DNA from: Escherichia coli
GTDB lineage: Bacteria > Pseudomonadota > Gammaproteobacteria > Enterobacterales > Enterobacteriaceae
Direction: 5' to 3' (one strand)
Length of the DNA: 64,000 bases
NCBI RefSeq assembly: GCF_051903065.1
Contig: NZ_CP178438.1
Within the stretch, counting starts at the first letter, position 1. Each line of letters starts with the position of its first letter. Below the pieces are notes generated by a model, which did no database searches, was not told the origin of the DNA, and worked only from the letters and a program-made list of their open reading frames with translations. Positions 43,439 to 55,617 of this stretch are shown here, piece by piece. The translations under genes and the position numbers were made by a program.

Positions 43439-43921
43439 ATGACGAAGAAAAAAGCACATAAACCTGGTTCAGCGACCATCGCGCTTAACAAGCGCGCCCG
43501 TCACGAATACTTTATCGAAGAAGAGTTCGAAGCGGGACTTGCCCTGCAAGGCTGGGAAGTTAAATCCCTGCGCGCAGGAAAAGCCAATATCAGCGACAGC
43601 TACGTCCTTCTGCGTGACGGAGAGGCATTTCTGTTTGGCGCTAACATCACGCCAATGGCCGTGGCCTCCACGCATGTGGTGTGCGATCCTACCCGTACCC
43701 GCAAGTTACTTCTCAACCAGCGCGAACTGGACTCATTGTACGGTCGCGTCAATCGAGAAGGCTATACCGTAGTGGCGCTCTCCCTGTACTGGAAAAATGC
43801 CTGGTGCAAAGTGAAAATCGGCGTCGCCAAAGGTAAGAAACAGCACGATAAACGTTCAGATATCAAAGAGCGCGAATGGCAGGTGGATAAAGCGCGTATC
43901 ATGAAAAACGCCCACCGTTAA
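43439..43921 (+). CDS. smpB: SsrA-binding protein SmpB
   Basis: 160 aa ([25 protein letters not shown]...). Confidence 0.97.
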
Positions 43922-44135
43922 ACCTGCACTCCAATTATTGACCAGTTCCTCACCGCGCCTCCCTCTCCGGCGGCGCGAATGAACATCTTATTGGTTATCA
44001 CATCCGACACAAATGTTGCCATTCCATTGCTTAATCGAATAAAAATCAGGCTACATGGGTGCTAAATCTTTAACGATAACGCCATTGAGGCTGGTCATGG
44101 CGCTCATAAATCTGGTATACTTACCTTTACACATT

Positions 44136-44498
44136 GGGGCTGATTCTGGATTCGACGGGATTTGCGAAACCCAAGGTGCATGCCGAGGGGCGGTTGGCCT
44201 CGTAAAAAGCCGCAAAAAATAGTCGCAAACGACGAAAACTACGCTTTAGCAGCTTAATAACCTGCTTAGAGCCCTCTCTCCCTAGCCTCCGCTCTTAGGA
44301 CGGGGATCAAGAGAGGTCAAACCCAAAAGAGATCGCGTGGAAGCCCTGCCTGGGGTTGAAGCGTTAAAACTTAATCAGGCTAGTTTGTTAGTGGCGTGTC
44401 CGTCCGCAGCTGGCAAGCGAATGTAAAGACTGACTAAGCATGTAGTACCGAGGATGTAGGAATTTCGGACGCGGGTTCAACTCCCGCCAGCTCCACCA
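44136..44498 (+). ncRNA. ssrA: tmRNA (transfer-messenger RNA)
   Basis: 363 nt from GGGGCTGATTCTGGATTCGACGGG to ...GGTTCAACTCCCGCCAGCTCCACCA; tag-ORF region present. Confidence 0.97.
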
Positions 44499-44508
44499 AA
44501 TAAATCAA

Positions 44509-44540
44509 GGGGTTACGTGAAAGCGTAGCCCCTTTTTCTT
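44509..44540 (+). terminator. intrinsic terminator downstream of ssrA
   Basis: Hairpin GGGGTTACG...CGTAGCCCC (one G:U) followed by TTTTTCTTT. Confidence 0.7.
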
Positions 44541-44621
44541 TGGTAGTGGCGGCAAAATGGCGACAGACTTTTGCGTCCATCTTGCCTGTCGCCATCTTGA
44601 AATCATGCAAAGAGGTTTCAC

Positions 44622-45104
44622 ATGGAAGAACTTCACTTTGTTTACATCAATGCAAATGGTCGTATCGGTGTTCACTCAATACAGAGCATCAGTTATAGCG
44701 AAAATCATATACAGGGCATTTGTAAGAACACCGATCGAATAAAAACCTTCCGAAAAGACCGCATTCTTAAACAGTACGATTCACCAGAACAAGCCATTCA
44801 GGAATGCGCGTCATTCCTCCCCGAAAACTACTCACATCTCACTAAGCAGTCTGGTCCGAAAAAAAATACATTCGATGTGTGCTTCACCGGATTTAAGAAA
44901 GCAGATAAAGAAAGATTGGTTGATAAGGCGAATGAACAAGGATTAACGGTAAGAACCTCTGTAACCCAAAGCCTTCAGATGCTCTGTTGCGGTTACAATG
45001 CAGGCCCATCAAAAGTATCGGCAGCCAGGATGAAAGGCACAATCATCATAGATGAGCCTGGCTTTATACATTTTCTTGAAACGGGTGAGATCCCAGATGA
45101 ATAA
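44622..45104 (+). CDS. hypothetical prophage cargo protein, WYL-like N-terminal domain plus BRCT-like C-terminal domain
   Basis: 160-aa ORF with AGAGG 10 nt upstream of ATG; N-terminal ...DRIKTFRKDRI resembles the WYL-domain RxFRxDRI strand; C-terminal FDVCFTGF...GLTV...GPSKVSAARMKGTIIIDEPGF resembles the LigA-type BRCT fold pattern. Confidence 0.6.
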   Translation: MEELHFVYINANGRIGVHSIQSISYSENHIQGICKNTDRIKTFRKDRILKQYDSPEQAIQECASFLPENYSHLTKQSGPKKNTFDVCFTGFKKADKERLVDKANEQGLTVRTSVTQSLQMLCCGYNAGPSKVSAARMKGTIIIDEPGFIHFLETGEIPDE

Positions 45105-45107
45105 AAA

Positions 45108-45125
45108 CCTGCCGTAGCAGGTTCT
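45108..45125. terminator. bidirectional terminator between the cargo gene and ogr
   Basis: Hairpin AACCTGC-CGTA-GCAGGTT flanked by A/T runs between convergent stops. Confidence 0.6.
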
Positions 45126-45130
45126 CTTTC

Positions 45131-45349
45131 TCAAAAATTCATATGCCCCTGACCACCTGGCAATGGATGTGGAGGGGCTGTAGCAATCAATGCAGGTGTC
45201 ACAATAAACCGGACCACTGTTTCATGGGTAACAAAAGTGCTCCCGCAGTTAATATTTTGGCACTGGCAGTAACGCTCTTTGGTGCTTTCTGTTACTTGAA
45301 AACTGCTCCTTGTGTGCGCCGCATGACCACACTTCGGACAATTCATCAT
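45131..45349 (-). CDS. ogr: Ogr-type zinc-finger late-gene activator
   Basis: From ATG at 45349 (or 45346): MMNCPKCGHAAHTRSS...KERYCQCQNINCGSTF...PHPLPGGQ matches the P2 Ogr CxxC-N22-CxxxxC pattern; ORF-track GTG extension rejected. Confidence 0.85.
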   Translation of the reverse strand: MMNCPKCGHAAHTRSSFQVTESTKERYCQCQNINCGSTFVTHETVVRFIVTPALIATAPPHPLPGGQGHMNF

Positions 45350-45417
45350 ATCCAGATCCCTACCTTTGCTATCAGAATCATTGTAATGATACACAAAATA
45401 TCAATATTGAGAACACT

Positions 45418-46518
45418 TTATTCCATTTCAAGATCATCAATCTTCACTTCGAGTTCAATACTGGTTGTAAAACCGTTATCCGGGCTGACGGTATGTGTCA
45501 GAGTCGTAATGGTCCATTCCGCATCATCTATCGGCTGTTTAAAGCCACTGACTTTCACTGGCATTTCCGTGTAGAGATCTGCCCGACCTTCCGCCAGTTG
45601 TAGCGAGAATGACGCAACGCCGCGTTGCAGGCGTTCCCACTGCATTTTCGCTGCCCGTTCAGCGTTGCTCCGGTTGGCATAAGTGCGATTAAGTACCAGC
45701 ACGTTTTCATCCGTACCCACCAGGTAATCGCCCTGCTTTGCTTCCGGCTCTTTCTTCTGCTTTGCGGTCCTGCGCTTACGCTTCACCGTGGTGCTTTCTT
45801 TCTTCGCGGGTTCGCGGGTATGCAACCAACTGGCAATTACGCCCGTATAGGCTCCGCGATCTGCCAGGGTAAAGCGGTGACTGTCGCCGTCCTTGCGTGT
45901 GATAGTGATCACCGGCAGAGGTTTACCGCTGGCGCTTTTGCCCTGTCCCTGCCGGATGAATAACAGATTGCCATTTTTCACCGACGCAATAGCACCGTAC
46001 TGGCGCGCCAGCCGCATCAGAAAACTGCCGTCACTCTCATTGGTCTGGTCTATATGTTCCACGGGCTTATCCGACAGGTCTTTACCCAGTGCCATCTTCA
46101 GCTTGTGCCGCGCGGCTATTTCCTTCACCACTTCCCCGACGGTGGTCTTGTGCCACGACTTTTCACGACGGGTATTCAGCGTTTCCCGAAAATCAGCACT
46201 TCGCGCCCGGATAGTCAGGCGGTCCGGTGCGCCAGTGTGTTCAATCTCGTCCACCGTGAATGCCCCTTTAGGGAAAAGCGGCTGCCCCTTCCAGCCCAGC
46301 GCCAGCGTAATGACCGCACCACGGCGCGGCAGCACGATTTTTCCGTCGGCGTCGTCCAGCTCCAGATCAAGCTGGTCCGCTTCAAAGCCCCGATTGTCCG
46401 TCAGAGTCAAACTCATCAGGCGGTTATCCAGCACAGTGGTGATATCCCTGCCCTCAATACTGATGCTGAATGCGGGAGTTTTGTTGCCTTTGTTAAGCAG
46501 TTCAGAGCTGAAATTCAC
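45418..46518 (-). CDS. D: tail protein D (P2 gpD-like)
   Basis: 366 aa at the position downstream of U; overlapping stop/start with U. Confidence 0.8.
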   Translation of the reverse strand: MNFSSELLNKGNKTPAFSISIEGRDITTVLDNRLMSLTLTDNRGFEADQLDLELDDADGKIVLPRRGAVITLALGWKGQPLFPKGAFTVDEIEHTGAPDRLTIRARSADFRETLNTRREKSWHKTTVGEVVKEIAARHKLKMALGKDLSDKPVEHIDQTNESDGSFLMRLARQYGAIASVKNGNLLFIRQGQGKSASGKPLPVITITRKDGDSHRFTLADRGAYTGVIASWLHTREPAKKESTTVKRKRRTAKQKKEPEAKQGDYLVGTDENVLVLNRTYANRSNAERAAKMQWERLQRGVASFSLQLAEGRADLYTEMPVKVSGFKQPIDDAEWTITTLTHTVSPDNGFTTSIELEVKIDDLEME

Positions 46519-47000
46519 GACAGCAGCCCTCCCACCGTTTTACTGATATCACTTAAGGCAGATGTTGCCGTGTCCTGCAGATTATTCAGTTGCGTACTGA
46601 GATCACCGAACATATCGGACAGGGATTCATCCACCCGTTTGAGCGACAGGGTGAACTCAATCCGGCGCGGCATACCGTCGCGGAAAAACTCCGTTTTAGT
46701 CAGATTCAGTCCCTCAATCACATACATGCCGTAAATCGTGCCGCTGCCTTCAATCAGGGGCCATGCTTTTCCCTGTTCTGCCATCTGCTCCAGAGCCAGC
46801 AACGACAGCCTGCCGCCCGTTATCTCCGGCATAAGAACACCAGAAAGCGTCAGCATGTCGTTGTCCGGTCCCAGAAACTGCGTGGACGGACGACGGTTTA
46901 CCCGGCTGTTTGCCGCATGTCGCCAGCTGCGTTGATACTGCAGTTCCTGATACGGAACGGTGCGCAGCATAAACACGTACAATCCCAGCACCATCATCAT
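46515..47000 (-). CDS. U: tail protein U (P2 gpU-like)
   Basis: 161 aa, position and size as P2 gpU; 4-nt overlaps with T and D. Confidence 0.8.
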   Translation of the reverse strand: MMMVLGLYVFMLRTVPYQELQYQRSWRHAANSRVNRRPSTQFLGPDNDMLTLSGVLMPEITGGRLSLLALEQMAEQGKAWPLIEGSGTIYGMYVIEGLNLTKTEFFRDGMPRRIEFTLSLKRVDESLSDMFGDLSTQLNNLQDTATSALSDISKTVGGLLS

Positions 47001-50000
47001 GCGTCGTATCCCCCCTGATCGCTGTAGTTACTCCTGGCTTTTGCCTTCAGCCTGCGTTCACGTTCATCAAGCTGGCGTGCCACCTCCCGCGCAATATCCT
47101 GCGCACTTTGTCCTGGCTGCGTCTGAATGATGATCTGCGTCGGTGCCTCAATCCGGTGAACGGGCGGCACAGTGGCTGCACGACTCACCATCGCTTCGCC
47201 GCCTTTCGCGGGAAGTGCCAAAGGATGCAACGGTGGAAGCTCTGCAGGCGCGGCAGCAACGCCCATCATTCCGGCAACAACGGCAGCCAGTGCAGCTGTA
47301 TTTCTCCGGCTGGTCACATTTGCCGGGCCGTTAACAATTTCCGGCCCGTTTTCACCGACGATGCCAAACTGCCCGCGCGGGATATAGCCGCCGCTGTCAT
47401 ACATCCCCGCAAAGCCATATCCCCATGACGGAAAACCACCCGGTGGCATCATCACTTTACCGTCTGCATTCACCGTCGCAGGTTGCTGACGCGTCACTCT
47501 TTCCGGCAGTTTCGCCTTTGCAGCCTCTTTACTGACAATGCCGAGTTTCTCCAGCAACCAGGAAACGCCGGATTTCAGGGAGTCCAGCGGATGCATGACC
47601 ATATTCAGCCCTTCCGCCAGTGCCTCCCCGAATCGTCGCCCCATTGCCGCTGCGCTCTGCAGTTCGGCAGAGGTCGACTTAACGGGCGTCAGCAGATCAG
47701 TAAACCAGCCCCACAACGCCTGCACTTTGTCGCCAATCCACTGAAACACAGGCTTAAGTGGTTCGAATGCTGCACTGATGGGACCTGCCGCCGCTTTGAA
47801 TCCTTCCACCACACCAGCGAGAAATGCGGTGATGGGTTGCCAGTATTTCCAGACAACCAGCGCCACGCCCGCCAGTGCAGTAACCACAAGACCTATCGGA
47901 CTGAGCAGAGCACCTAACAGACCAGATATGGCATACAGGGCAACGCGCAGCATCGCCAGCGGACCAGATGCAAGCACACGAAGCACCGCGCCTGCGGCAG
48001 CCAGTCCACCGCGCAGTACCGCCAGAGGATTCATAAACATCACAGCAACCGCACGTAAACCGGATAATCCAGACCGCAATAGTGCAACCGGCGCACCTGC
48101 TACAGTTTTCAGGACATTTCCCGTCAGTGATGCCGTACGGCGCAAAGACGACAACGGCGCAGTAAGTAAACCCGCTGCGTTACCCGATGAAGCAAGCCCG
48201 CGTCGCAGCACTGCCAGTGGTGCGCCTGCCAGCCAGGACAAAGCGTTGCTGGTTCGGGTTACTGCTGCCGTAACGGAAGGTAACGTTTTGATACCCAGCA
48301 CAGAGAGTCCCAGACGGATGACTGCCAGCGGCCCCAGCACTGCAGCCAGCGCCACCGCTAAGGTGCCGAGGCCCACGGTAACGGCAGCCACCACTGCGGC
48401 TACTTTCATCAGAGTGCCCGTCAGTTCCGGGTTAGCTTCCACCCAGCGACGCAACGCCCCCGTGACGCTTTTCACCGTGTACAGAATATCCATCAGCGGC
48501 TGGCGCAGCGTTTCGCCCAGGCTGCTGAAGGTGTTCTGTGCTCCGGTTTTGACCAGCAACCACTGAGCAGAAAGTGAGTCTTTGTTGATGTCGGATTCTT
48601 TCTGCATGGAGCCGAGCGCATCATTGCCCGCAGTCAGTTTTAGCTGGCGCTGTAGTTCCGGCAGGTTGTTTGCCAGTTTCGCCGCGTCATCGCCAAACTC
48701 TTTACCAAACAACATGGTCATGGCAGACAGACGCTTATCCTGCGGCAGTGCGTTCACCTTCTCCAGCACACGCTGGATAGTTCCCATCGCATCCTTCGTC
48801 ATCTGCTTTTCAATCACTTCAGGATTGAGTTTCAGCAGATTCATCCCTTCAAAGAAACTCTTGCTTTGCATGGTGGCAATGGACAATTCACGCACCATCG
48901 CGTTTGCTGCACTGGCTGCAACCTCCGGCGCAGCGCCCAGTGTCAGAAAGGTGGAACCCAGTGCCGCAGCTTTACGATAATCCAAACGGTCAGCCACACC
49001 ACCCAGGCGTTGCATGACATCAATAATGTCCGCCCCTTTCGACATGGCGTTATCATCCAGATAGTTCAGCGCATCACCGAGCTGTTCAATATTGCGGGTA
49101 GGGATTTTGTAGAGCTGGGCGATTTTCCCCAGACTTTCTGACAGTTCATCCGCTGGCAGCTCAAAGGCTGTTGCCGCCTTTGCTGCCGTACTGGCGAAGG
49201 CCAGCAGGTCACGTTTCTGGTCCTCCCAGCTGTCGTCAGGGTTTGCGACGTTCATGCGCGCCCCACCTTCAACCAGTGCAGCGAAATCCACCGCACCGTT
49301 TTCCATCGGCAACTGTTCGCTGGCAGCCTTGATGGCATCCTGCATTTCATAAAAACGTGCAGTGGGGTTGCCATTATCGTCACGCAGACCATTGACCTGC
49401 TTTGCCACACCTTTCATGGCATCTTCCATGCTGGTATAGATTTTTACTGCCGCCATCACTGGTGCGCCCATTGCCAGCCCTGCAGCCGTGGTGGTGGCTC
49501 CGGCACCTGCAATACGATCACGCACCTCCAGCGAACGGGCATAACTGGCACGCGCTGCATTCATCCTGCGCTGAGCTTCCCCCAGTCGCTTCAGCCGCGC
49601 CTCCTGTTTCGAAAGTTCCTGGTTATAACGTGATGTTTCACGGGCTAAACGGGCAGTTGCTCCCGCATCATCTTTCGCAGAAATTCCCGCCCGGTACAGT
49701 TCAGCACGCACAAGCGCCGTTTGCTTCTGCAAATATTTTTGTTGTTCTTCCAGGCGTTGGACTGCCAGCGTTTGCCGACCTAAAGCCACAAGATGCCTTT
49801 GTGATGGTTGCTCCATCGCCTCCAGCTCAGAGCTAAGCAAATTAGCCTTCTGTCTGGCATAGTTCAGCCTGTCGCCTAACTTCTTGTTATCAGCCTGCAG
49901 CTTGCGAAATTTTTCCAGGCTGTTACCCGCCTGATTGAGTTGCTTTAATGCGTCACGGGAGTTTCTGATTGCGCCAGCCAGCTCTTTCGAACTGGCCTGT

Positions 50001-50074
50001 GCAGCACGGAATGGGCGGGTGAGTTTGTCAACCGCATTAAGAATGACCTGCAGGCGCAGGTTGTTATCACTCAT
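46997..50074 (-). CDS. T: tail tape-measure protein (P2 gpT-like)
   Basis: 1025 aa, coiled-coil N-terminal part, hydrophobic repeat region, C-terminal Gly-rich part; downstream of E/E'. Confidence 0.88.
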   Translation of the reverse strand: MSDNNLRLQVILNAVDKLTRPFRAAQASSKELAGAIRNSRDALKQLNQAGNSLEKFRKLQADNKKLGDRLNYARQKANLLSSELEAMEQPSQRHLVALGRQTLAVQRLEEQQKYLQKQTALVRAELYRAGISAKDDAGATARLARETSRYNQELSKQEARLKRLGEAQRRMNAARASYARSLEVRDRIAGAGATTTAAGLAMGAPVMAAVKIYTSMEDAMKGVAKQVNGLRDDNGNPTARFYEMQDAIKAASEQLPMENGAVDFAALVEGGARMNVANPDDSWEDQKRDLLAFASTAAKAATAFELPADELSESLGKIAQLYKIPTRNIEQLGDALNYLDDNAMSKGADIIDVMQRLGGVADRLDYRKAAALGSTFLTLGAAPEVAASAANAMVRELSIATMQSKSFFEGMNLLKLNPEVIEKQMTKDAMGTIQRVLEKVNALPQDKRLSAMTMLFGKEFGDDAAKLANNLPELQRQLKLTAGNDALGSMQKESDINKDSLSAQWLLVKTGAQNTFSSLGETLRQPLMDILYTVKSVTGALRRWVEANPELTGTLMKVAAVVAAVTVGLGTLAVALAAVLGPLAVIRLGLSVLGIKTLPSVTAAVTRTSNALSWLAGAPLAVLRRGLASSGNAAGLLTAPLSSLRRTASLTGNVLKTVAGAPVALLRSGLSGLRAVAVMFMNPLAVLRGGLAAAGAVLRVLASGPLAMLRVALYAISGLLGALLSPIGLVVTALAGVALVVWKYWQPITAFLAGVVEGFKAAAGPISAAFEPLKPVFQWIGDKVQALWGWFTDLLTPVKSTSAELQSAAAMGRRFGEALAEGLNMVMHPLDSLKSGVSWLLEKLGIVSKEAAKAKLPERVTRQQPATVNADGKVMMPPGGFPSWGYGFAGMYDSGGYIPRGQFGIVGENGPEIVNGPANVTSRRNTAALAAVVAGMMGVAAAPAELPPLHPLALPAKGGEAMVSRAATVPPVHRIEAPTQIIIQTQPGQSAQDIAREVARQLDERERRLKAKARSNYSDQGGYDA

Positions 50075-50503
50075 CGTTGGCCCCGCATCTCTGAATCGCT
50101 TTATACCGCCATTCCAGCACTTCGGTCAGCGGCATAACGTCAGTAACGGATGGCGGCCAGTGAAAAATGGTGGCGATATCTGCCACCAGATCGTCAACCG
50201 TCAGGCTGTCGGTAAACCGGCAAGTACCGACTTCTTCAACAAAAAAGTGACAACCTCAACCGACATAGCGGTGAGATCTGCCGGGTCCATCTCTGCAATT
50301 TCCTGTGCAGTCAGTGCCGGGCTGGAGATGCGGGGGATCACGGTCATCATCGCGTTCACATCCATATCCATAATGGCCTGCAGGCGTGTACCGCGCAGTG
50401 CACCGGACTGCGGTTTACGCAGCACAATTTCGGTGATTTCCGTTTTACCGCGCTTGATAGGGGTATCCAGTTGAATAGTCTTTTCAGTCTGCTTATCGCT
50501 CAT
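50067..50503 (-). CDS. E': tail assembly chaperone E' (E plus -1 frameshift extension, about 145 aa)
   Basis: -1 frame is open from the slippery site T-TTT-TTG (50246-50240) to a TGA at 50069-50067, overlapping the T start codon by 8 nt. Confidence 0.7.
50201..50503 (-). CDS. E: tail assembly chaperone E (P2 gpE-like)
   Basis: 100-aa ORF between FII and T containing the slippery heptamer near its 3' end. Confidence 0.8.
   Translation of the reverse strand: MSDKQTEKTIQLDTPIKRGKTEITEIVLRKPQSGALRGTRLQAIMDMDVNAMMTVIPRISSPALTAQEIAEMDPADLTAMSVEVVTFLLKKSVLAGLPTA
50240..50246 (-). promoter_or_regulatory. programmed -1 ribosomal frameshift slippery heptamer TTTTTTG
   Basis: Heptamer in X-XXY-YYZ register within E (codons ACT-TTT-TTG). 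Confidence 0.7.
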
Positions 50504-50557: not shown

Positions 50558-51073
50558 TCAGAGGCCGAGTGCGTTGCGGTGCGCTTCCATCAGGTCCACA
50601 CCGTCCACAATTTCCACCATGTTGATAAGGTCCACTTCATAGAGCACCTCACCATTGATAGTCAGCTTCGCGTAGCTGTTGGTACTGGTCACTTTGGTGG
50701 TGTTGCTTTCGCCCGTCTTCCACTCGCCGGAATCCACTTCTTTGTGACGTCCACGCACCACAAGCTCCACGGCCTGCACTTCTCCGGTATCGTCACGCTG
50801 GATAGAGCCGGTGAAGCGCAACTGGATGCCATCCACCGTGGCTTTGCCCATCTGTTTAAACAGCAGCAGTTCAGTACCACCAATGGAAAATTCTGTGTCC
50901 AGCGCACTGTCATCAAGCCCCAGATCCACATCCACTGCACCCGGCATTCCGCCGCCGCGATACTTCTCATATTTGCGGGTGAATTTCGGCAGCGTCAGCG
51001 ACTCAACGATCCCCTGCCAGTTGTTCCCGTCATTAAACAGGTTCAGGTGTTTTAATTTGCGTGGTAAAGCCAT
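50558..51073 (-). CDS. FII: tail tube protein (P2 gpFII-like)
   Basis: 171 aa immediately downstream of the sheath gene. Confidence 0.85.
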   Translation of the reverse strand: MALPRKLKHLNLFNDGNNWQGIVESLTLPKFTRKYEKYRGGGMPGAVDVDLGLDDSALDTEFSIGGTELLLFKQMGKATVDGIQLRFTGSIQRDDTGEVQAVELVVRGRHKEVDSGEWKTGESNTTKVTSTNSYAKLTINGEVLYEVDLINMVEIVDGVDLMEAHRNALGL

Positions 51074-51082
51074 GTTGTCCCC

Positions 51083-52255
51083 TTACGCGCTGACCTGGCT
51101 GGAGAAATTCACCAGGTACTGATCGGTGATGCGCTGACGCAGCATCAGGTTTTCAAGTGGCGGCACTGGCGTGTAGTCGTAGTCGATGGTGAGTTTTCCG
51201 GCTTTCAGCGTGTCTTTGTCGTTCACCGACTCATCCAGCCAGCAATCACCACCAATGAGATAGCCCTGACTGACCAGGCTGCGCATTTTGGCGCGGATAC
51301 CCTCGATAATGTCGCGGGCCAGCGACGGATTCAGCGGTTTATCCACCGCCCACATGTGCGCTTCTGCCATCGTGTCCGTCAGCACCTGCGCCGTGCGGGT
51401 GTAGTTTTCGAAGGCAAAGAGCGGGTCATCACTCAGGCAGCGGGAACCCCAGAAGCGAAAACCGTCTTTGCGGATAAGGGTGGTGACGTCGTTCTGGTTC
51501 AGCAGTCCCGCATCGGTTGCCGGGTCCTGCAGATCCCAGAACACATCAGCAGAAATTCCGGTGACACCGTTAACGCCCACGTTGGACAGGCTTTTGTGCC
51601 ATCCGGTCTGCTCGTCAATTTTGGCGCGCAGACCAAGCGCACGGGCGGTGGCATAAGCCGTTGCTTCGGCATTCAGCACCGTGTCCCAGCCAGTAAAGTC
51701 GGGCCAGATCAGCATTCCTTCGCGCTGGCTGAAGTTTTCACGGTAAGTGATCGCCTCCTGTACCGTCTTGCAGCCATACGCTGACAGGTAGGCAAACCCA
51801 CGCAGGCTTTGCGCCACGCTCAGCAACTCAGTAGCAACGGCTTTGTTATCGTGACCTGGCACGCCGAGAATGCGCGGTTTAACGCCGAGCTGTGTCTGGG
51901 CAGATAACAGGGCTTTCATGCCTGTTTTTTTACCTTCAGCAGTCACTGCGCCGATGATATTGGTCGTGGTTTCTTCTTCCGTTTCACCCTGCGGCACACG
52001 CACAACAACGGTCACTGGTTTTGCCTGGTCAGCGATGGCATCCAGCGAACGGGCCAGCGTGCCGGACTCACCCGCTTTACCGCTGGCAGTCAGCACATCA
52101 GTGATCAGCACGGGTTTATTAAGAGGAAACATTTTTGCATCGGCATCATCGCCCGTGCAGACCATACCCACGATGGCGGTGCTCACCGTGGTAATGGATC
52201 GGGTGCCTTCGTTGACTTCAGCAACGCGCACCCCGTGGTGGTAATCCTGAGCCAT
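51083..52255 (-). CDS. FI: contractile tail sheath protein (P2 gpFI-like)
   Basis: 390 aa, sheath-like sequence, first gene of the FI-FII-E-T-U-D operon. Confidence 0.88.
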
Positions 52256-52397: not shown

Positions 52398-52964
52398 TCA
52401 GGGCGATTCATTGCTCTCATTCGCCGGAAATTTTCTATAAATGGTAGAAACGCCCACATCAAAAATCAGTGCAATACGCTGTCTTGATTCTCCGGCCTCG
52501 AGTAAACGTCCAATCTGTGCCCACTGTTCGGTGGTCAACTTAGGACGGCGTCCACCTACTCTGCCTTTGGCACGAGCTGCAGCCAGCCCTGCTCTGGTAC
52601 GTTCAACTATCAGTTCACGTTCCATTTCAGCCAGAGCCCCCATGACGTGAAAAAAGAAACGGCCCATTGGGGTACTGGTATCAATACTGTCAGTCAGGCT
52701 TCGGAAATTCACACCACGCTGGCGCAACTCTTCTATCAGCGTAACAAGATGCCGCATACTGCGCCCCAGTCTATCCAGCTTCCAGACAACCAGCGTGTCT
52801 CCTGCCGATAGTGTCCTGAGCAGTTTTTTAAGCCCCGGTCTGTCGGACTTAGTGCCACTGATTTTATCCTCAAAAATCCGCTCACATCCCGCGCAGTTCA
52901 GTGCATTACGTTGCAAATCGGTGTTCTGGTCATTTGTTGACACGCGTACATAGCCAATAAGCAT
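52398..52964 (-). CDS. serine DNA invertase (Hin/Gin/Pin family)
   Basis: 188 aa from ATG at 52964: MLIGYVRVSTNDQNTDLQ... with catalytic Ser region and C-terminal HTH (GVSTIYRKF); ORF-track upstream extension rejected. Confidence 0.9.
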   Translation of the reverse strand: MLIGYVRVSTNDQNTDLQRNALNCAGCERIFEDKISGTKSDRPGLKKLLRTLSAGDTLVVWKLDRLGRSMRHLVTLIEELRQRGVNFRSLTDSIDTSTPMGRFFFHVMGALAEMERELIVERTRAGLAAARAKGRVGGRRPKLTTEQWAQIGRLLEAGESRQRIALIFDVGVSTIYRKFPANESNESP

Positions 52965-53019
52965 GATCAATCCCCTGAATAAAAACCGGGGATGATGCCA
53001 GTTAGCCATTATCTCTGCA

Positions 53020-53045
53020 TTTTCTTAAACGTTGGTTTGGGAGAA
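53020..53045. repeat. hix/gix-like 26-bp inversion site (left)
   Basis: TTTTCTTAAACG-TT-GGTTTGGGAGAA; bottom strand reads TTCTCCCAAACC-AA-CGTTTAAGAAAA; shares 14 bp with the right site in inverted orientation. Confidence 0.75.
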
Positions 53046-53468
53046 GGTTCGGCATTACCCGTTGGTGTGCCTGTTCCGTGGCCTTCTGCAATACCGCCTA
53101 CTGGCTGGCTGAAATGTAACGGTGCGGCTTTTTCTGCCGTTGAATATCCTAAACTGGCGAGGGTTTACCCGACAAATAAATTACCTGATTTACGCGGTGA
53201 GTTTATTCGTGGCTGGGATGATGGGCGTGGAGTGGATAGTGGGCGCGCGTTATTATCAACTCAAACAGATGAATTTAAATCACATAGTCATTATTTCGAA
53301 AGAACATGGGCACAAACTGGATTTGATACAACAGGTGGATATTATCTTTTAGCCGCTGATGTTTCTGGCTCAGTAAATCAACAGAGATCCGATAGCACTA
53401 ACTCGGTGGGGGGGAGAGAATCTCGCCCTCGTAATATTGCATTTAACTATATTGTGAGAGCTGTGTAA
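53033..53468 (+). CDS. alternative tail-fibre C-terminal segment, promoterless in this orientation
   Basis: Frame continuous through the left site; encodes GLGEGSALPVGVPVPWP...LPDLRG...SHSHYF...NIAFNYIVRAV, the P2 gpH-type C-terminal pattern. Confidence 0.75.
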
Positions 53469-54073
53469 TGGATAATGCTGTATTAAATAGCGAACATATT
53501 GCTACGAAGGCTGGAAATGTTACTGTTTATAACTTTGACGGTGAAACGCGAGAGTATATTTCCCCATCTATTGAATATATTGCCGTTGGTGTCGGTATTC
53601 CGGCATATTCATGTTTAGATGCTCCTGCCACACGTAAAGATGGTTATGCTATTTGCCGTTCTGCAGGCTTAAACTCATGGGAATATATACCAGACCATCG
53701 CAGTGAAATTGTCTATAGCACTGAAACAGGAGAATCAAAAGAAATCACAGCTCTGGGGGATTACCCTGAAAATACAACCATTATCGCCCCATTAACGCCA
53801 TACGATAAATGGGATGGTGAGAAATGGGTGACGGATACCGAGGCACAGCGTAGCGCCGCAGTAGACGCGGCAGAAGCACAGCGCCAGTCGCTGATTGATG
53901 CTGCTATGGCTTCCATTAGCCTGCTTCAACTGAAATTACAGGCCGGACGGAAGCTGACGCAAGCAGAAACAACCCGACTAAACGCCGTGCTGGATTACAT
54001 TGACGCGGTGATGGCAACGGATACCAGCAACGCGCCGGGGGTTATCTGGCCAGTTCCACCTGAGATGGTTTAA
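53468..54073 (+). CDS. tail-fibre assembly chaperone (Tfa/gpG-like) for the alternative fibre segment
   Basis: 201 aa, start overlaps upstream stop (TAATG); C-terminal pattern ...TDTSNAPGVIWPVPPEMV typical of Tfa proteins. Confidence 0.8.
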   Translation: MDNAVLNSEHIATKAGNVTVYNFDGETREYISPSIEYIAVGVGIPAYSCLDAPATRKDGYAICRSAGLNSWEYIPDHRSEIVYSTETGESKEITALGDYPENTTIIAPLTPYDKWDGEKWVTDTEAQRSAAVDAAEAQRQSLIDAAMASISLLQLKLQAGRKLTQAETTRLNAVLDYIDAVMATDTSNAPGVIWPVPPEMV

Positions 54074-54225
54074 TCTCAATCAGAATGGGTTCGCCCTTCT
54101 CGTTAACAGATATTTCCATTCCTTCAGGGATTTCAGATGCAGTAAAAAACCAGTTATCTTCTGGTAATTCAACAGCCCCGGTCACGTCATGAAGACCGGG
54201 GATTACTTCAGTCAAAGTAACAGGA
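54042..54225 (-). CDS. short ORF downstream of H (possible truncated or non-canonical Tfa); uncertain
   Basis: Only about 61 codons are open after the H stop in this frame and no ATG with a clear RBS is present; the track's 95-aa ORF overlaps H. Confidence 0.25.
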
Positions 54226-55617
54226 TTAAACAGGCGCACAATAAACTCTCCAAGAAAAAGCACTTGTTGATGGTCTTCCGTCGTACATCTGGCAGCGGAC
54301 ATAAAAACCGGTATTAGTGACCTGGTCATCCACGATCATTGAAACGTGAACGTTATTAGATGTGCTCCCGTAATCCGTTCTTATTCTTTCCGCTATGCTG
54401 ATAAAACGTGAAAGCTTAGGTAGCGCAATTGGATAAACGACTTTAGCCAGTCCATTATCATTAGAACCACCCGTTCCAAAGACTTCTATTGCACCATCTG
54501 ACCAGCGTATCCATGCACCATTGGCATTAGCTCCTCGTTGAATGACATATCTGGCTTCTCCCAAACCAAGGTATGCGAGAAGACCAGCTACATCCTTTCC
54601 ACTCAAATTGGTAAGCGTATTGTCCAGCGGTTGTTTACCTGCCAGCGCATTAAGCATTGTCGTGGCAAAGTTCGGATCATTCCCCAGTGCCGCCGCCAGT
54701 TCGTTCAGTGTATCCAGTGCCGCAGGTGCAGAACCCACCATTGCTGCAATCGCTGATTTCACAAAAGCCGTGGTGGCAATCTGTGTATTGTTGACCGACT
54801 GTGCCGCAGTAGGTGCGGTTGGCGTTCCGGTGAGTGCCGGACTCGACAGCGGCGCTTTCAGTGCCAGTGCATTGTTAATGGTGGTACTGAATTTCGGATC
54901 ATTGTTAATGGCTGCGGCTATTTCTTTCAGCGTGTCCAGCGTGGCTGGCGCACCATTAATAAGAGCCGTCAGAGCCGCCTGAACAAACGCGGTGGTCGCA
55001 ATCTGCGTGGTGTTATTCCCTGCTGCTGGCGTTGGCGCTTTGGGTGTCCCGGTAAACGTCGGACTTTCTTTGGGTGCATACTGTGAATGCGGGTCCGGTG
55101 CGGCAAGATGTTTTGCCATCTGATCATCCGCGTACACCTTCAGCTCCAGTGCCTTGTCATCCACATACTTGCGGGTTGCCAGCACTACAGCAGGGTCGAT
55201 TTTCAGGGTGATATTGTCCGTGCTGCTGGTAATCAGCACCATGCGCACGGTCTGAGTGCGCCCGCTACCTTCAGCCAGTTGCGGCTTATAGCTTTCCGGG
55301 CAGTTGCCCACGGCAATCAATGCCTCGGACTCATCAAACAGGCCCACTTCACGAATCCACCAACCGCCCTCGTTTTCAGGGATCACCTGTTCGGCAATAA
55401 TCTGGCTGCTGTTCTGCGGGTCGATATAGAGCATATTCAGCGCAGCCCGGCGTTTCTCATTTACCAGTGCAGTCTGCTTTGAGTCTGGCGTTGGCAATAC
55501 TCCGCCGCCATCGCCGACCGCCATATGGGTAATTTTTAGCGGCACACCGAGCGCGGCGGCGCTGGCAAGTTTCGCCGCGCCAATATCCGTCAGCAGGGTA
55601 TAAAATTTTGTGCTCAT
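54226..55617 (-). CDS. H: tail fibre protein (P2 gpH-like), currently expressed variant
   Basis: 463 aa; conserved N-terminal part, two about 70-aa Ala/Thr-rich repeats, junction ...AYLGLGEA at the right inversion site, then a distinct C-terminal domain ending YCAPV. Confidence 0.88.
   Translation of the reverse strand: MSTKFYTLLTDIGAAKLASAAALGVPLKITHMAVGDGGGVLPTPDSKQTALVNEKRRAALNMLYIDPQNSSQIIAEQVIPENEGGWWIREVGLFDESEALIAVGNCPESYKPQLAEGSGRTQTVRMVLITSSTDNITLKIDPAVVLATRKYVDDKALELKVYADDQMAKHLAAPDPHSQYAPKESPTFTGTPKAPTPAAGNNTTQIATTAFVQAALTALINGAPATLDTLKEIAAAINNDPKFSTTINNALALKAPLSSPALTGTPTAPTAAQSVNNTQIATTAFVKSAIAAMVGSAPAALDTLNELAAALGNDPNFATTMLNALAGKQPLDNTLTNLSGKDVAGLLAYLGLGEARYVIQRGANANGAWIRWSDGAIEVFGTGGSNDNGLAKVVYPIALPKLSRFISIAERIRTDYGSTSNNVHVSMIVDDQVTNTGFYVRCQMYDGRPSTSAFSWRVYCAPV
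54546..54571. repeat. hix/gix-like 26-bp inversion site (right), inside H
   Basis: TTCTCCCAAACC-AA-GGTATGCGAGAA; 12-bp imperfect inverted half-sites around a central AA, close to hixL as recalled. Confidence 0.75.

What the first reader, a model, noticed from the sequence alone, without database searches (positions are those of the whole stretch)
47760..48310. Expanded tape-measure protein with degenerate hydrophobic tandem repeats
T is 1025 aa, against about 815 aa recalled for P2 gpT, and contains at least four copies of a motif like (A/G/N)P(L/V)A(V/L/M)LR(R/S/G)(G/A)L within a Val/Ala/Leu-rich stretch. Tape-measure length scales with tail length, so this phage probably has a longer tail than P2.
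Basis: partly seen in the sequence, partly recalled or inferred. Interest (0 to 1): 0.3.

Follow-up and report, generated by a model that had tools for sequence, protein, structure and literature searches.

The report
Repeat-built P2-type tail tape measure
This is the ordinary tail-length "ruler" protein of a very common P2-family prophage of E. coli; its water-repelling middle is built from seven degenerate 21-22-residue repeats, which makes it 210 residues longer than phage P2's ruler and probably, though nobody has measured it reliably, gives a somewhat longer tail.

Summary
The ORF at 46997-50074 (-) encodes a 1025-aa tape measure protein (TMP); P2 gpT is 815 aa. Residues 581-746 form seven degenerate tandem units of 21-22 aa, with a 43-aa super-period. 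The consensus is x-P-L-A-x-L-R-x-G-L followed by a Gly/Ala/Ser-rich tail. The motif occurs 6 times against 0.015 expected, and the self-similarity z-score at offset 43 is 7.5. The units lie in a 206-aa stretch with no acidic residues.

The array explains 112 of the 210 extra residues over P2 and 86 of the 90 extra over Fels-2/RE-2010 (935 aa). The unit DNA is only 50-73% identical, so the array is old and is conserved at the protein level.

The gene is ordinary. Its DNA is 96.8% identical to that of Klebsiella phage 4LV2017, and the array DNA occurs in 1049 of 5426 complete E. coli genomes. Related TMPs span 801-1218 aa (median 972), so P2 is the short outlier.

Close relatives carry mostly in-register gains and losses of units (+11, +/-22, -37, -64, -75 aa) within intact tail operons.

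A longer tail is a reasonable inference from work on TP901-1, diffocin and monocin, but it is untested. The one published micrograph measurement of a relative is internally inconsistent.

The parts
46997..50074 (-). Tape measure protein gene (P2 gpT orthologue), 1025 aa
   Evidence: ORF. TIGR01760 scores 313 bits against a cutoff of 28.8. PF10145 and phrog_28 also match. DNA is 96.8% identical to the annotated TMP of Klebsiella phage 4LV2017.
48374..49477 (-). Conserved TMP core region (aa 200-567), shared with P2 gpT
   Evidence: TIGR01760 covers aa 200-567 here and aa 199-549 in P2 gpT.
47807..48424 (-). Hydrophobic zone free of acidic residues (aa 551-756, 206 aa). It has strongly hydrophobic blocks at both ends and Arg-bearing amphipathic units in the middle.
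   Evidence: Longest Asp/Glu-free stretch is 551-756. Kyte-Doolittle 19-residue windows reach 1.6 or more at 551-596 and 684-745. The zone has 14 Lys/Arg and 0 Asp/Glu.
47837..48334 (-). Array of seven degenerate 21-22-aa units (aa 581-746) starting at aa 581, 618, 639, 661, 682, 704 and 725. Consensus: x-P-L-A-x-L-R-x-G-(L/M)-xxx-G-xx-L-xx-(L/V)-xx.
   Evidence: Across the 7 units in 40 orthologues, Pro at position 2 is 100% conserved and Arg at position 7 is 85% conserved.
47966..48223 (-). Units 2-5 (aa 618-703). This stretch roughly matches the ~86-aa segment missing from the 935-aa Fels-2/RE-2010/SEN8 TMPs, and it is the main site of copy-number change in close relatives.
   Evidence: MAFFT gap, region counts, and indel map of 120 relatives.
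47297..47422 (-). C-terminal block GGYIPRGQFGIVGENGPEIVNGPANV (aa ~885-926). It contributes to the length excess over P2.
   Evidence: The block is absent from P2 gpT in the alignment. It is about 60% identical to TMPs of many siphophages. It is tandemly duplicated (+114 aa) in 1139-aa relatives.
50201..50503 (-). gpE tail assembly chaperone gene. The T-TTT-TTG slippery site lies at 50240-50246.
   Evidence: ORF and sequence. It corresponds to the P2 gpE-like CDS of 4LV2017. The P2 -1 frameshift site is annotated.
50067..50186 (-). E' extension frame (product E+E' by -1 frameshift). It overlaps the T start codon by 8 nt.
   Evidence: Read from the sequence. It has the same layout as the 120-nt 'gpE-like' CDS in 4LV2017, Fels-2 and MLG42.
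46515..47000 (-). gpU gene, immediately downstream of T and overlapping it by 4 nt
   Evidence: PF06995 Phage_P2_GpU, E=9.5e-44.
45418..46518 (-). gpD baseplate hub gene. In solved tails of other systems the TMP C-terminus anchors at the hub or spike.
   Evidence: PF05954 Phage_GPD. The anchoring role is inferred from the diffocin and monocin structures (PMC11329794, PMC11830787).

Best explanation
The gene encodes the tail tape measure protein of a P2-family (Elveevirus/Felsduovirus-like) prophage integrated beside ssrA.

Shown. Between the conserved TMP core and the conserved '...WKYWQP...' block lies a hydrophobic, acid-free, Arg-bearing zone. Here it is built from seven degenerate 21-22-residue units, each starting with Pro. 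The units arose by ancient internal duplication and are kept at the protein level. Occasional in-register recombination between units changes their number in related prophages.

Inferred, in the virion. During tail assembly three copies of T, kept soluble by the gpE/gpE+E' chaperones, would be anchored by their C-termini in the gpD hub. They would stretch as a mostly helical trimer through the tube lumen and stop tube and sheath polymerisation at their N-terminal end. On this view the repeat zone is part of the ruler. At about 0.15 nm per residue, the whole protein predicts a tail roughly 30 nm (about 8 tube/sheath layers) longer than P2's. Units 2-5 alone would add about 13 nm over Fels-2-type phages.

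Inferred, after ejection. After sheath contraction the TMP is expelled. By analogy with other TMPs, the hydrophobic units would refold into membrane-inserting helices that help form the DNA conduit across the inner membrane.
For: Identity.
- TIGR01760 scores 313 bits against a cutoff of 28.8; PF10145 and phrog_28 also match.
- The gene order is sheath, tube, E, E', T, U, D, ogr, with a P2-type slippery site.

Repeats.
- establish the array.
- The array sits exactly where the window protein is longer than RE-2010 (+86 aa) and P2 (+112 aa).
- The 7-unit state is conserved at 72-98% identity across Escherichia, Klebsiella, Citrobacter, Enterobacter, Lelliottia, Salmonella and Yersinia phage MLG42.
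- Substitutions between relatives fall mostly on third codon positions of the T frame.

Family pattern.
- Distant relatives have the same three-part layout, with zones of 42-251 aa.
- Zone length correlates with TMP length (r=0.41, p=0.001).
- Some distant relatives carry independent 22-aa Pro-initiated arrays, for example P0198.

Ruler role of hydrophobic segments.
- In TP901-1, tail length falls linearly with deletions in both the repeats and the first hydrophobic region (PMC5099701).
- In the contractile diffocin, the full-length 817-aa TMP, which has five predicted TM helices, is an extended trimeric coiled coil spanning 32 layers (PMC11329794).
- Monocin has a 622-aa TMP and 22 rings of 4 nm (PMC11830787).

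Membrane role.
- Kyte-Doolittle windows reach 1.6 or more at 551-596 and 684-745.
- A post-ejection refolding and pore model is proposed for diffocin.
Against: - No tail of a phage with this TMP has been measured reliably.
- The only numbers, for MLG42, give a tail/head ratio of 1.82 against about 2.2 for the 186-type phages. Taken at face value that argues against a relatively longer tail, but the 128-nm head shows the measurement or the imaged particle is wrong.
- AlphaFold2 predicts helices throughout but with pLDDT below 50 in the repeat zone. Extended and folded-back arrangements therefore cannot be told apart.
- The unit length (21.5 aa, about 3.2 nm) does not match one tube layer (about 4 nm), so a single-unit change need not alter the layer count.
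- Mahony et al. found the second hydrophobic region of the TP901-1 TMP dispensable for infection, and they doubted a membrane role for such regions.
Confidence: 0.6

Rival explanations
1. The repeat zone does not act as ruler length. It is packed compactly, for example as helical hairpins in the baseplate-proximal lumen. Its role would be in membrane insertion, channel formation or chaperone (gpE/E+E') docking. The tail would then be no longer than expected from the non-repeat part, and unit number would tune penetration or escape from injection-blocking immunity instead.
For: - The two ends of the zone are TM-like and the middle units are amphipathic and Arg-rich.
- The zone has no acidic residues at all.
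- The normalised MLG42 measurement does not show a longer tail.
- Hydrophobic TMP regions have been linked to chaperone recruitment (PMC5099701).
- The unit length does not match the tube-layer rise.
Against: - In the only full-length TMP structure, diffocin, the protein is reported as an extended coiled coil spanning the whole particle even though it has a predicted TM region.
- Deleting a hydrophobic region shortens the TP901-1 tail in proportion.
- Zone length correlates with total TMP length across the family.
Confidence: 0.25
2. The array is a tolerated, essentially neutral spacer. Recombination between units creates length variants with no phenotypic consequence, or variants that survive only in prophages that no longer need to make particles.
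For: - Many variant clusters are singletons.
- Some database relatives are clearly damaged: a frameshifted array in P0039, T-U read-through fusions at 1107 and 1186 aa, and an 85-aa deletion into the conserved block in P0045.
Against: - The motif is conserved at the protein level while the unit DNA has diverged to 50-73% identity.
- The 7-unit form dominates; the largest 1025-aa cluster has 9661 member sequences.
- 973 complete E. coli genomes carry the region at 80% coverage or more, mostly colinear.
- The 1047-aa and 961-aa alleles sit in intact, syntenic tail operons.
- The -22 allele cluster has 1764 members.
Confidence: 0.1
3. The apparent repeats are a chance by-product of Ala/Leu/Val/Gly-rich low-complexity composition, or the signal belongs to the antisense ORF at 47778-48566 (+).
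For: - The region is compositionally biased.
- An antisense ORF stays open here (262 aa), in 4LV2017 (342 aa) and in MLG42 (332 aa).
Against: - None of 20000 composition-matched shuffles reached the observed motif count.
- The offset-43 z-score is 7.5.
- Pro at position 2 is invariant in every unit of 40 orthologues.
- Indels in relatives are in register with the units in the T frame.
- The antisense ORF lies in the frame whose third positions coincide with those of T. It has no stable length and its product is low-complexity.
Confidence: 0.03

Closest known systems
TMPs of Klebsiella phage 4LV2017 (Elveevirus), Escherichia phage 500465-1 and Escherichia phage Cartapus (LF82 prophage)
   Same: All are 1025 aa with the same 7-unit array and the same operon. 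Protein identity is 96-98% for 4LV2017-type Klebsiella phages and 500465-1; DNA identity is 94.5-96.8%.
   Different: Only point substitutions differ, and Cartapus has a different N-terminal allele. These records annotate the gene simply as a tape measure. I found no description of the repeats.
TMPs of Fels-2, SopEPhi, SEN8 and RE-2010 (Felsduovirus), 935 aa
   Same: RE-2010 is about 74% identical and colinear with the window protein. All share the same core, the same first and last units, the same C-terminal block and the same operon. Fels-2 is also integrated at ssrA (from memory).
   Different: RE-2010 lacks about 86 aa covering roughly units 2-5, so its array has about 3 units. Fels-2 and SEN8 have the same 935-aa length.
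Bacteriophage P2 gpT (815 aa)
   Same: It has the TIGR01760 core, a coiled-coil N-terminus, a hydrophobic zone followed by RKYWEP, the E/E+E' frameshift chaperones upstream, and U and D downstream.
   Different: It is 210 aa shorter: 88 aa against 200 in the zone, with no PLAxLR array, only two degenerate 'WPV' units. It lacks the GxVGENGPE block. tblastn gives only 37.5% identity over 29% of the query.
Aromatic-marked 11/18-aa tandem repeats of TP901-1-type TMPs (Belcaid 2011; Mahony 2016)
   Same: These are degenerate tandem repeats inside a TMP. Their deletion shortens the tail. They have been proposed as natural facilitators of duplication and deletion (PMC5099701). The 22-aa unit here equals two 11-aa periods, and one relative carries an 11-aa half-unit duplication (P0058).
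   Different: The marker residues here are Pro and Arg, not Trp/Phe. The period is 21-22/43 aa. The array lies inside the hydrophobic zone. The phage is contractile-tailed.
Diffocin TMP CD1366 (817 aa; contractile R-type bacteriocin)
   Same: It belongs to a contractile system. The TMP has a predicted multi-helix TM region yet is resolved as a trimeric coiled coil spanning the tube. It is proposed to refold into a membrane pore after ejection (PMC11329794).
   Different: There is no detectable sequence similarity in the repeat zone. It targets a Gram-positive cell. No repeat array is described.
Monocin TMP FtbJ (PDB 9j1k chain J)
   Same: This is the only PDB sequence hit (E=0.0023, query aa 692-827 against chain 356-496). 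It has a 622-aa TMP and 22 rings.
   Different: The match is weak. The aligned part is not resolved in the structure; only residues 573-622 are (PMC11830787). The repeat zone alone finds nothing in the PDB.

Membership tests
Phage tail tape measure protein (TIGR01760 / PF10145) | Match to the curated family model above its cutoff | tested here: met
   TIGR01760 scores 313.4 bits against a cutoff of 28.8, covering aa 200-567. PF10145 scores 67.5 bits against a cutoff of 33.2. phrog_28 matches at E=1e-197.
Phage tail tape measure protein (TIGR01760 / PF10145) | Position in the tail operon directly after a chaperone pair made by programmed -1 frameshift and before hub proteins | tested here: met
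   gpE at 50201-50503, slippery T-TTT-TTG at 50240-50246 and the E' frame at 50067-50186 lie upstream. gpU and gpD lie downstream. P2 shows the same layout.
Phage tail tape measure protein (TIGR01760 / PF10145) | Long, mostly alpha-helical protein | tested here: inconclusive
   The AlphaFold2 model of aa 541-800 is helical throughout, but mean pLDDT is 56 and the repeat zone is below 50. Weak SMC/Rad50 matches suggest a coiled-coil N-terminus.
Phage tail tape measure protein (TIGR01760 / PF10145) | Protein length sets tail length (about 0.15 nm per residue); trimer inside the tube lumen | not testable with these tools
   This needs EM of particles. Literature on relatives gives no usable measurement.
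P2 gpT orthologue (Peduoviridae tail gene T) | Colinear homology to P2 gpT with conserved synteny | tested here: met
   The MAFFT alignment is colinear from N- to C-terminus with three length-variable regions. tblastn gives 37.5% identity over the matched parts. The operon is identical.
TMP tandem-repeat class of Belcaid/Mahony (TP901-1 type) | Repeats of 11 or 18 aa marked by Trp/Phe at fixed spacing | tested here: not met
   Significant offsets are 21/22, 43, 64 and 86 aa; offset 11 is not significant. The conserved markers are Pro (100%) and Arg (85%). The resemblance is in principle (degenerate tandem units within a TMP), not in family.
TMP hydrophobic / transmembrane region (as in TP901-1 and diffocin) | One or more stretches of about 19 or more residues hydrophobic enough to span a bilayer | tested here: met
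   Kyte-Doolittle 19-residue windows reach 1.6 or more at 551-596 (peak 2.38) and 684-745 (peak 2.42). P2 gpT and RE-2010 have the equivalent blocks.
TMP hydrophobic / transmembrane region (as in TP901-1 and diffocin) | Actual insertion into the host membrane or channel formation after ejection | not testable with these tools
   There is no experiment for any P2-family TMP in the papers I could read. The role is an analogy only.

The most novel reading that the evidence does not exclude
The array works as a naturally adjustable ruler. In-register recombination between the degenerate units repeatedly generates heritable TMP length alleles in circulating P2-family prophages of Enterobacteriaceae. 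Examples are +11, +/-22, -37, -64 (twice independently) and -75 aa. These alleles would change tail length by whole sheath/tube layers, or change the length of the membrane conduit, and be selected by differences in host envelope or capsule thickness or by injection-blocking immunity.
Probability: 0.2. Interest if true: 0.5.

Novelty: new member of a known kind. Interest (0 to 1): 0.2.

Why it matters
The importance is modest. The gene is a routine, correctly annotated tape measure present in about a fifth of complete E. coli genomes.

What is mildly useful is a natural allelic series (961, 988, 1003, 1025, 1036 and 1047 aa). The two alleles whose context I examined (961 and 1047 aa) sit in tail operons whose other genes keep the same sizes. 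That series would allow a clean test of the ruler rule in a contractile-tailed phage. It would also test whether hydrophobic TMP segments count as ruler length. Both questions bear on engineering tail or tailocin length.

It also corrects the framing of the finding. P2's 815-aa gpT is the short extreme of its family and is not the norm.

Tried and rejected
- **DNA-level repeats.** Tandem Repeats Finder and the direct-repeat search found nothing, so this is not a recent DNA duplication.
- **Structure prediction.** AlphaFold2 of aa 541-800 with a 30-sequence alignment gave mean pLDDT 56 and below 50 in the array. I did not use it for fold searches.
- **Solved structures.** The PDB sequence search gave only a weak hit to monocin FtbJ, in a part that is not resolved. 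The repeat zone alone gave no hit.
- **Published tail lengths.**
  - SEN8 was not imaged.
  - Cartapus was never visualised.
  - The MLG42 numbers are internally inconsistent.
  - The RE-2010/ELPhiS paper is not held in the library.
  - Two other P2-like papers were uninformative.
- **Is the PLAxLR array widespread?** In 62 distant full-length representatives the motif occurs 0-3 times. The amplified motif is therefore lineage-specific, although the zone and the 21-22-aa periodicity recur elsewhere.
- **Antisense ORF 47778-48566 (+).** I considered it and judged it compositional.
- **Chance or low complexity.** Rejected by the shuffle tests.
Full report
**1. What is at the coordinates**

The finding lies inside one ORF, 46997..50074 on the minus strand, of 1025 aa.
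- It matches the curated tape-measure model TIGR01760 at 313 bits against a cutoff of 28.8, over aa 200-567.
- It also matches Pfam PF10145 and PHROG 28, 'tail length tape measure protein'.
- Upstream lie the sheath gene (51083-52255), the tube gene (50558-51073) and gpE (50201-50503). gpE carries a T-TTT-TTG slippery site at 50240-50246, and an E' frame ends 8 nt inside T.
- Downstream lie gpU, gpD and ogr.
- smpB and the tmRNA gene (44136-44498) flank the element, so this is a P2-family prophage sitting next to ssrA.
- The T gene is 96.8% identical in DNA to the annotated TMP of Klebsiella phage 4LV2017 (Peduoviridae, Elveevirus). It is 94.5% identical to Escherichia phage 500465-1 and 96% identical over 86% of its length to the LF82 prophage Cartapus. 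All three have a T gene of the same length.
- P2 gpT is 815 aa. Fels-2, SEN8 and RE-2010 have 935 aa. Yersinia phage MLG42 has 1021 aa.

**2. The repeats are real**

A fourth copy at 704 is one residue off. Three more degenerate copies lie at 581, 639 and 725. Spacings are 37, 21, 22, 21, 22 and 21 aa.
- The relaxed core P[LVI][AGS]x[LIV]R occurs six times against 0.015 expected. No composition-matched shuffle out of 20000 had more than one.
- A BLOSUM62 self-comparison of aa 576-750 peaks at offset 43 (z=7.5). Further peaks are at 21/22 (z=3.6/3.2), 64 (z=4.6) and 86 (z=3.6). Nothing else in the protein repeats at the chosen threshold.
- Across the seven units in 40 orthologues, the consensus is x-P-L-A-x-L-R-x-G-(L/M)-xxx-G-xx-L-xx-(L/V)-xx. 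Pro is invariant and Arg is present in six of seven units.
- The array spans aa 581-746, window 47837-48334. This is slightly wider at the high-coordinate end than the finding's range.
- At the DNA level the units are only 50-73% identical over their first ten codons, with exact runs of at most 8 nt. Neither Tandem Repeats Finder nor the repeat finder sees them. The duplication is therefore old, and the motif is held by selection on the protein.
- Differences from 4LV2017 and MLG42 fall mainly on third codon positions of the T frame.

**3. Setting of the array**

The array lies in a 206-aa stretch (aa 551-756) without a single Asp or Glu.
- In aa 560-747, Ala, Leu, Val and Gly make up 65% of residues, and there are 14 Arg/Lys.
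- The two ends (551-596 and 684-745) are hydrophobic enough to span a membrane. Units 2-4 are less hydrophobic, and units 2 and 3 carry Arg pairs.

**4. Where the extra length sits**

I used 'RRWVEANP' and 'WKYWQP' as anchors.

| Protein | N-part (aa) | Zone (aa) | C-part (aa) |
|---|---|---|---|
| Window T | 541 | 200 | 284 |
| RE-2010 | 541 | 114 | 280 |
| P2 gpT | 524 | 88 | 203 |

- The zone explains 86 of the 90 extra residues over the Fels-2 type, but only 112 of the 210 over P2.
- Another 81 residues lie in the C-terminal part. These include the block GGYIPRGQFGIVGENGPEIVNGPANV, which P2 lacks. That block is about 60% identical to TMPs of many unrelated siphophages.

**5. Comparison across the family**

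A full HMMER scan of 1.84 billion representatives with aa 541-800 found 637 relatives.
- Among 62 full-length representatives, TMP length runs 801-1218 aa with a median of 972.
- The acid-free zone runs 42-251 aa with a median of 116.
- The two lengths correlate (r=0.41, p=0.001).
- The layout is conserved: a hydrophobic block with '...LGPLA(L/V)xR...', then a variable basic Gly/Ala/Ser/Leu-rich stretch, then '(S/N)P(I/V)GL...(K/Y)YW(Q/E)P'.
- The amplified PLAxLR motif is lineage-specific, occurring 0-3 times elsewhere.
- Independent Pro-initiated 22-aa arrays exist in distant members, for example P0198, with z=4.5 at offset 22.
- P2's gpT is therefore the short extreme, and 1025 aa is unremarkable.

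**6. Copy-number variation in close relatives**

Among the 120 best 90%-identity clusters (78-98% identical), the large in-frame indels cluster in the array.

| Change | Length | Notes |
|---|---|---|
| +22 aa | 1047 aa | exact duplication of unit 5 |
| -22 aa | 1003 aa | one cluster has 1764 members |
| -22 aa, different site | 999 aa | Salmonella relatives; these also carry a small C-terminal deletion |
| +11 aa | 1036 aa | half-unit duplication |
| -37 aa | 988 aa | |
| -64 aa | 961 aa | two different junctions on two different N-terminal alleles, so two independent events |
| -75, -28, -50, -101 aa | 950, 997, 975, 924-925 aa | |

- Most junctions are in register with the units.
- The 1047-aa and 961-aa alleles lie in intact, syntenic late operons. 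Sheath (390 aa), tube (171), E (100), U (161) and D (366) are unchanged.
- A second hot spot is the C-terminal block: +114 aa in 1139-aa forms, and +31 and +78 aa in others.
- A 1053-aa allele replaces units 2-5 with an unrelated acidic cassette.
- Still, the 7-unit, 1021-1025-aa form dominates; the largest 1025-aa cluster has 9661 member sequences.
- The array DNA is present in 1049 of 5426 complete E. coli genomes, 973 of them with at least 80% coverage.

**7. How it most likely works**

Steps shown here:
- the protein is a TMP;
- the array exists and is conserved;
- it accounts for the length differences given above;
- it varies by whole units.

Steps inferred:
- *The zone is part of the ruler.* The inference rests on three systems.
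  - In TP901-1, tail length falls linearly with deletions in both the repeat region and the first hydrophobic region. The authors suggested that repeats facilitate natural duplication and deletion (PMC5099701).
  - In the contractile diffocin, the full-length 817-aa TMP, which has five predicted TM helices, is resolved as an extended trimeric coiled coil through 32 layers (PMC11329794).
  - Monocin has a 622-aa TMP for 22 rings of 4 nm (PMC11830787).
  - These give about 0.14-0.15 nm per residue. That predicts about 30 nm, or about 8 layers, more than P2, and about 13 nm more than Fels-2-type phages.
- *After contraction and ejection the hydrophobic units refold into membrane helices that contribute to the DNA conduit.* This was proposed for diffocin and other TMPs. 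Mahony et al. questioned it for TP901-1.
- *The units may be binding sites for gpE/E+E'.* This was not tested.

**8. Why the tail-length claim remains open**

- Cartapus could not be propagated or seen by TEM (PMC9928086).
- MLG42 (1021-aa TMP) is listed with a 128.4-nm head and a 234.3-nm tail. Thirteen 186-type phages in the same table average 71 nm and 156 nm (PMC11126057).
- In my judgement a 128-nm head is far too large for a 31-kb P2-like genome. Either the scale is wrong or another particle was imaged.
- Normalised to head size, the MLG42 tail is relatively shorter (ratio 1.82 against about 2.2).
- Nearly identical 186-type phages in that table range from 133 to 188 nm, which shows how large the measurement noise is. 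I treat this evidence as unusable in either direction.
- AlphaFold2 gives helices but no confident arrangement.
- No solved structure covers the zone.

**9. Verdict**

- The object is an ordinary, widespread and already annotated prophage tape measure.
- The specific Pro/Arg-marked 21-22-aa array and its unit-wise polymorphism appear undescribed in the papers I could search. They are a new member of a known kind, namely repeat-containing TMPs.
- Interest is low to modest.

Noticed in passing
window 50067-50503 (-): gpE, a T-TTT-TTG slippery heptamer (50240-50246) and an E' frame ending 8 nt inside the T start. This is the P2-type -1 frameshift chaperone pair, and it is conserved in 4LV2017, Fels-2 and MLG42.
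   Followed up: partly
window 43439-45394: smpB (43439-43921) and the tmRNA gene ssrA (44136-44498) directly flank the prophage end, so the prophage sits next to ssrA. Between ssrA and ogr lies a 160-aa ORF (44622-45104, +) with no Pfam match. It may be a prophage moron.
   Followed up: partly
window 52398-55617: A serine invertase (Resolvase + HTH_7, 52398-53009, -) sits next to oppositely oriented tail-collar (52992-53468, +) and tail-fibre-assembly (53468-54073, +) ORFs. These lie downstream of the tail fibre gene (54226-55617, -). The layout looks like a Gin/Cin-type invertible tail-fibre segment. The same module is present in the 961-aa-allele prophage L009 but not in L007.
   Followed up: partly
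window 47297-47422 (-); relatives P0001, P0020-P0031, P0116, P0117: The C-terminal block GGYIPRGQFGIVGENGPEIVNGPANV is missing from P2 gpT. It is about 60% identical to TMPs of many Pseudomonas, Xanthomonas, Vibrio and Acinetobacter siphophages. It is a second site of tandem expansion (+114, +78, +31 aa) in relatives.
   Followed up: partly
window 47778-48566 (+); L001 7509-8537 (-); L006 3819-4817 (-): A long antisense ORF overlaps the array and stays open in 4LV2017 (342 aa) and MLG42 (332 aa). It lies in the frame whose third positions coincide with those of T, and it encodes a low-complexity Ala/Ser/Thr/Pro/Arg-rich product of unstable length. I judged it a compositional by-product, but this is not strictly excluded.
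   Followed up: partly
relatives P0061, P0078, P0079, P0102, P0105-P0111 (1053 aa): A common E. coli allele replaces units 2-5 with an unrelated cassette containing acidic runs ('GGGDDDGGG'). This breaks the otherwise acid-free zone and shows mosaic exchange inside the TMP.
   Followed up: no
relatives P0002 (1186 aa), P0040-P0054 (1107 aa), P0039 (1020 aa), P0045 (940 aa): Some database relatives are T-U read-through fusions, are frameshifted within the array, or have deletions reaching into the conserved WKYWQP block. These are probably sequencing errors or decaying prophages, and they inflate the apparent length diversity.
   Followed up: no
L006 (Yersinia phage vB_YpM_MLG42, PP599993): The record annotates the 1021-aa T homologue as 'tail fiber assembly protein'. 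The paper reports a 128-nm head for this 31-kb phage. Both look like errors in the public record.
   Followed up: partly
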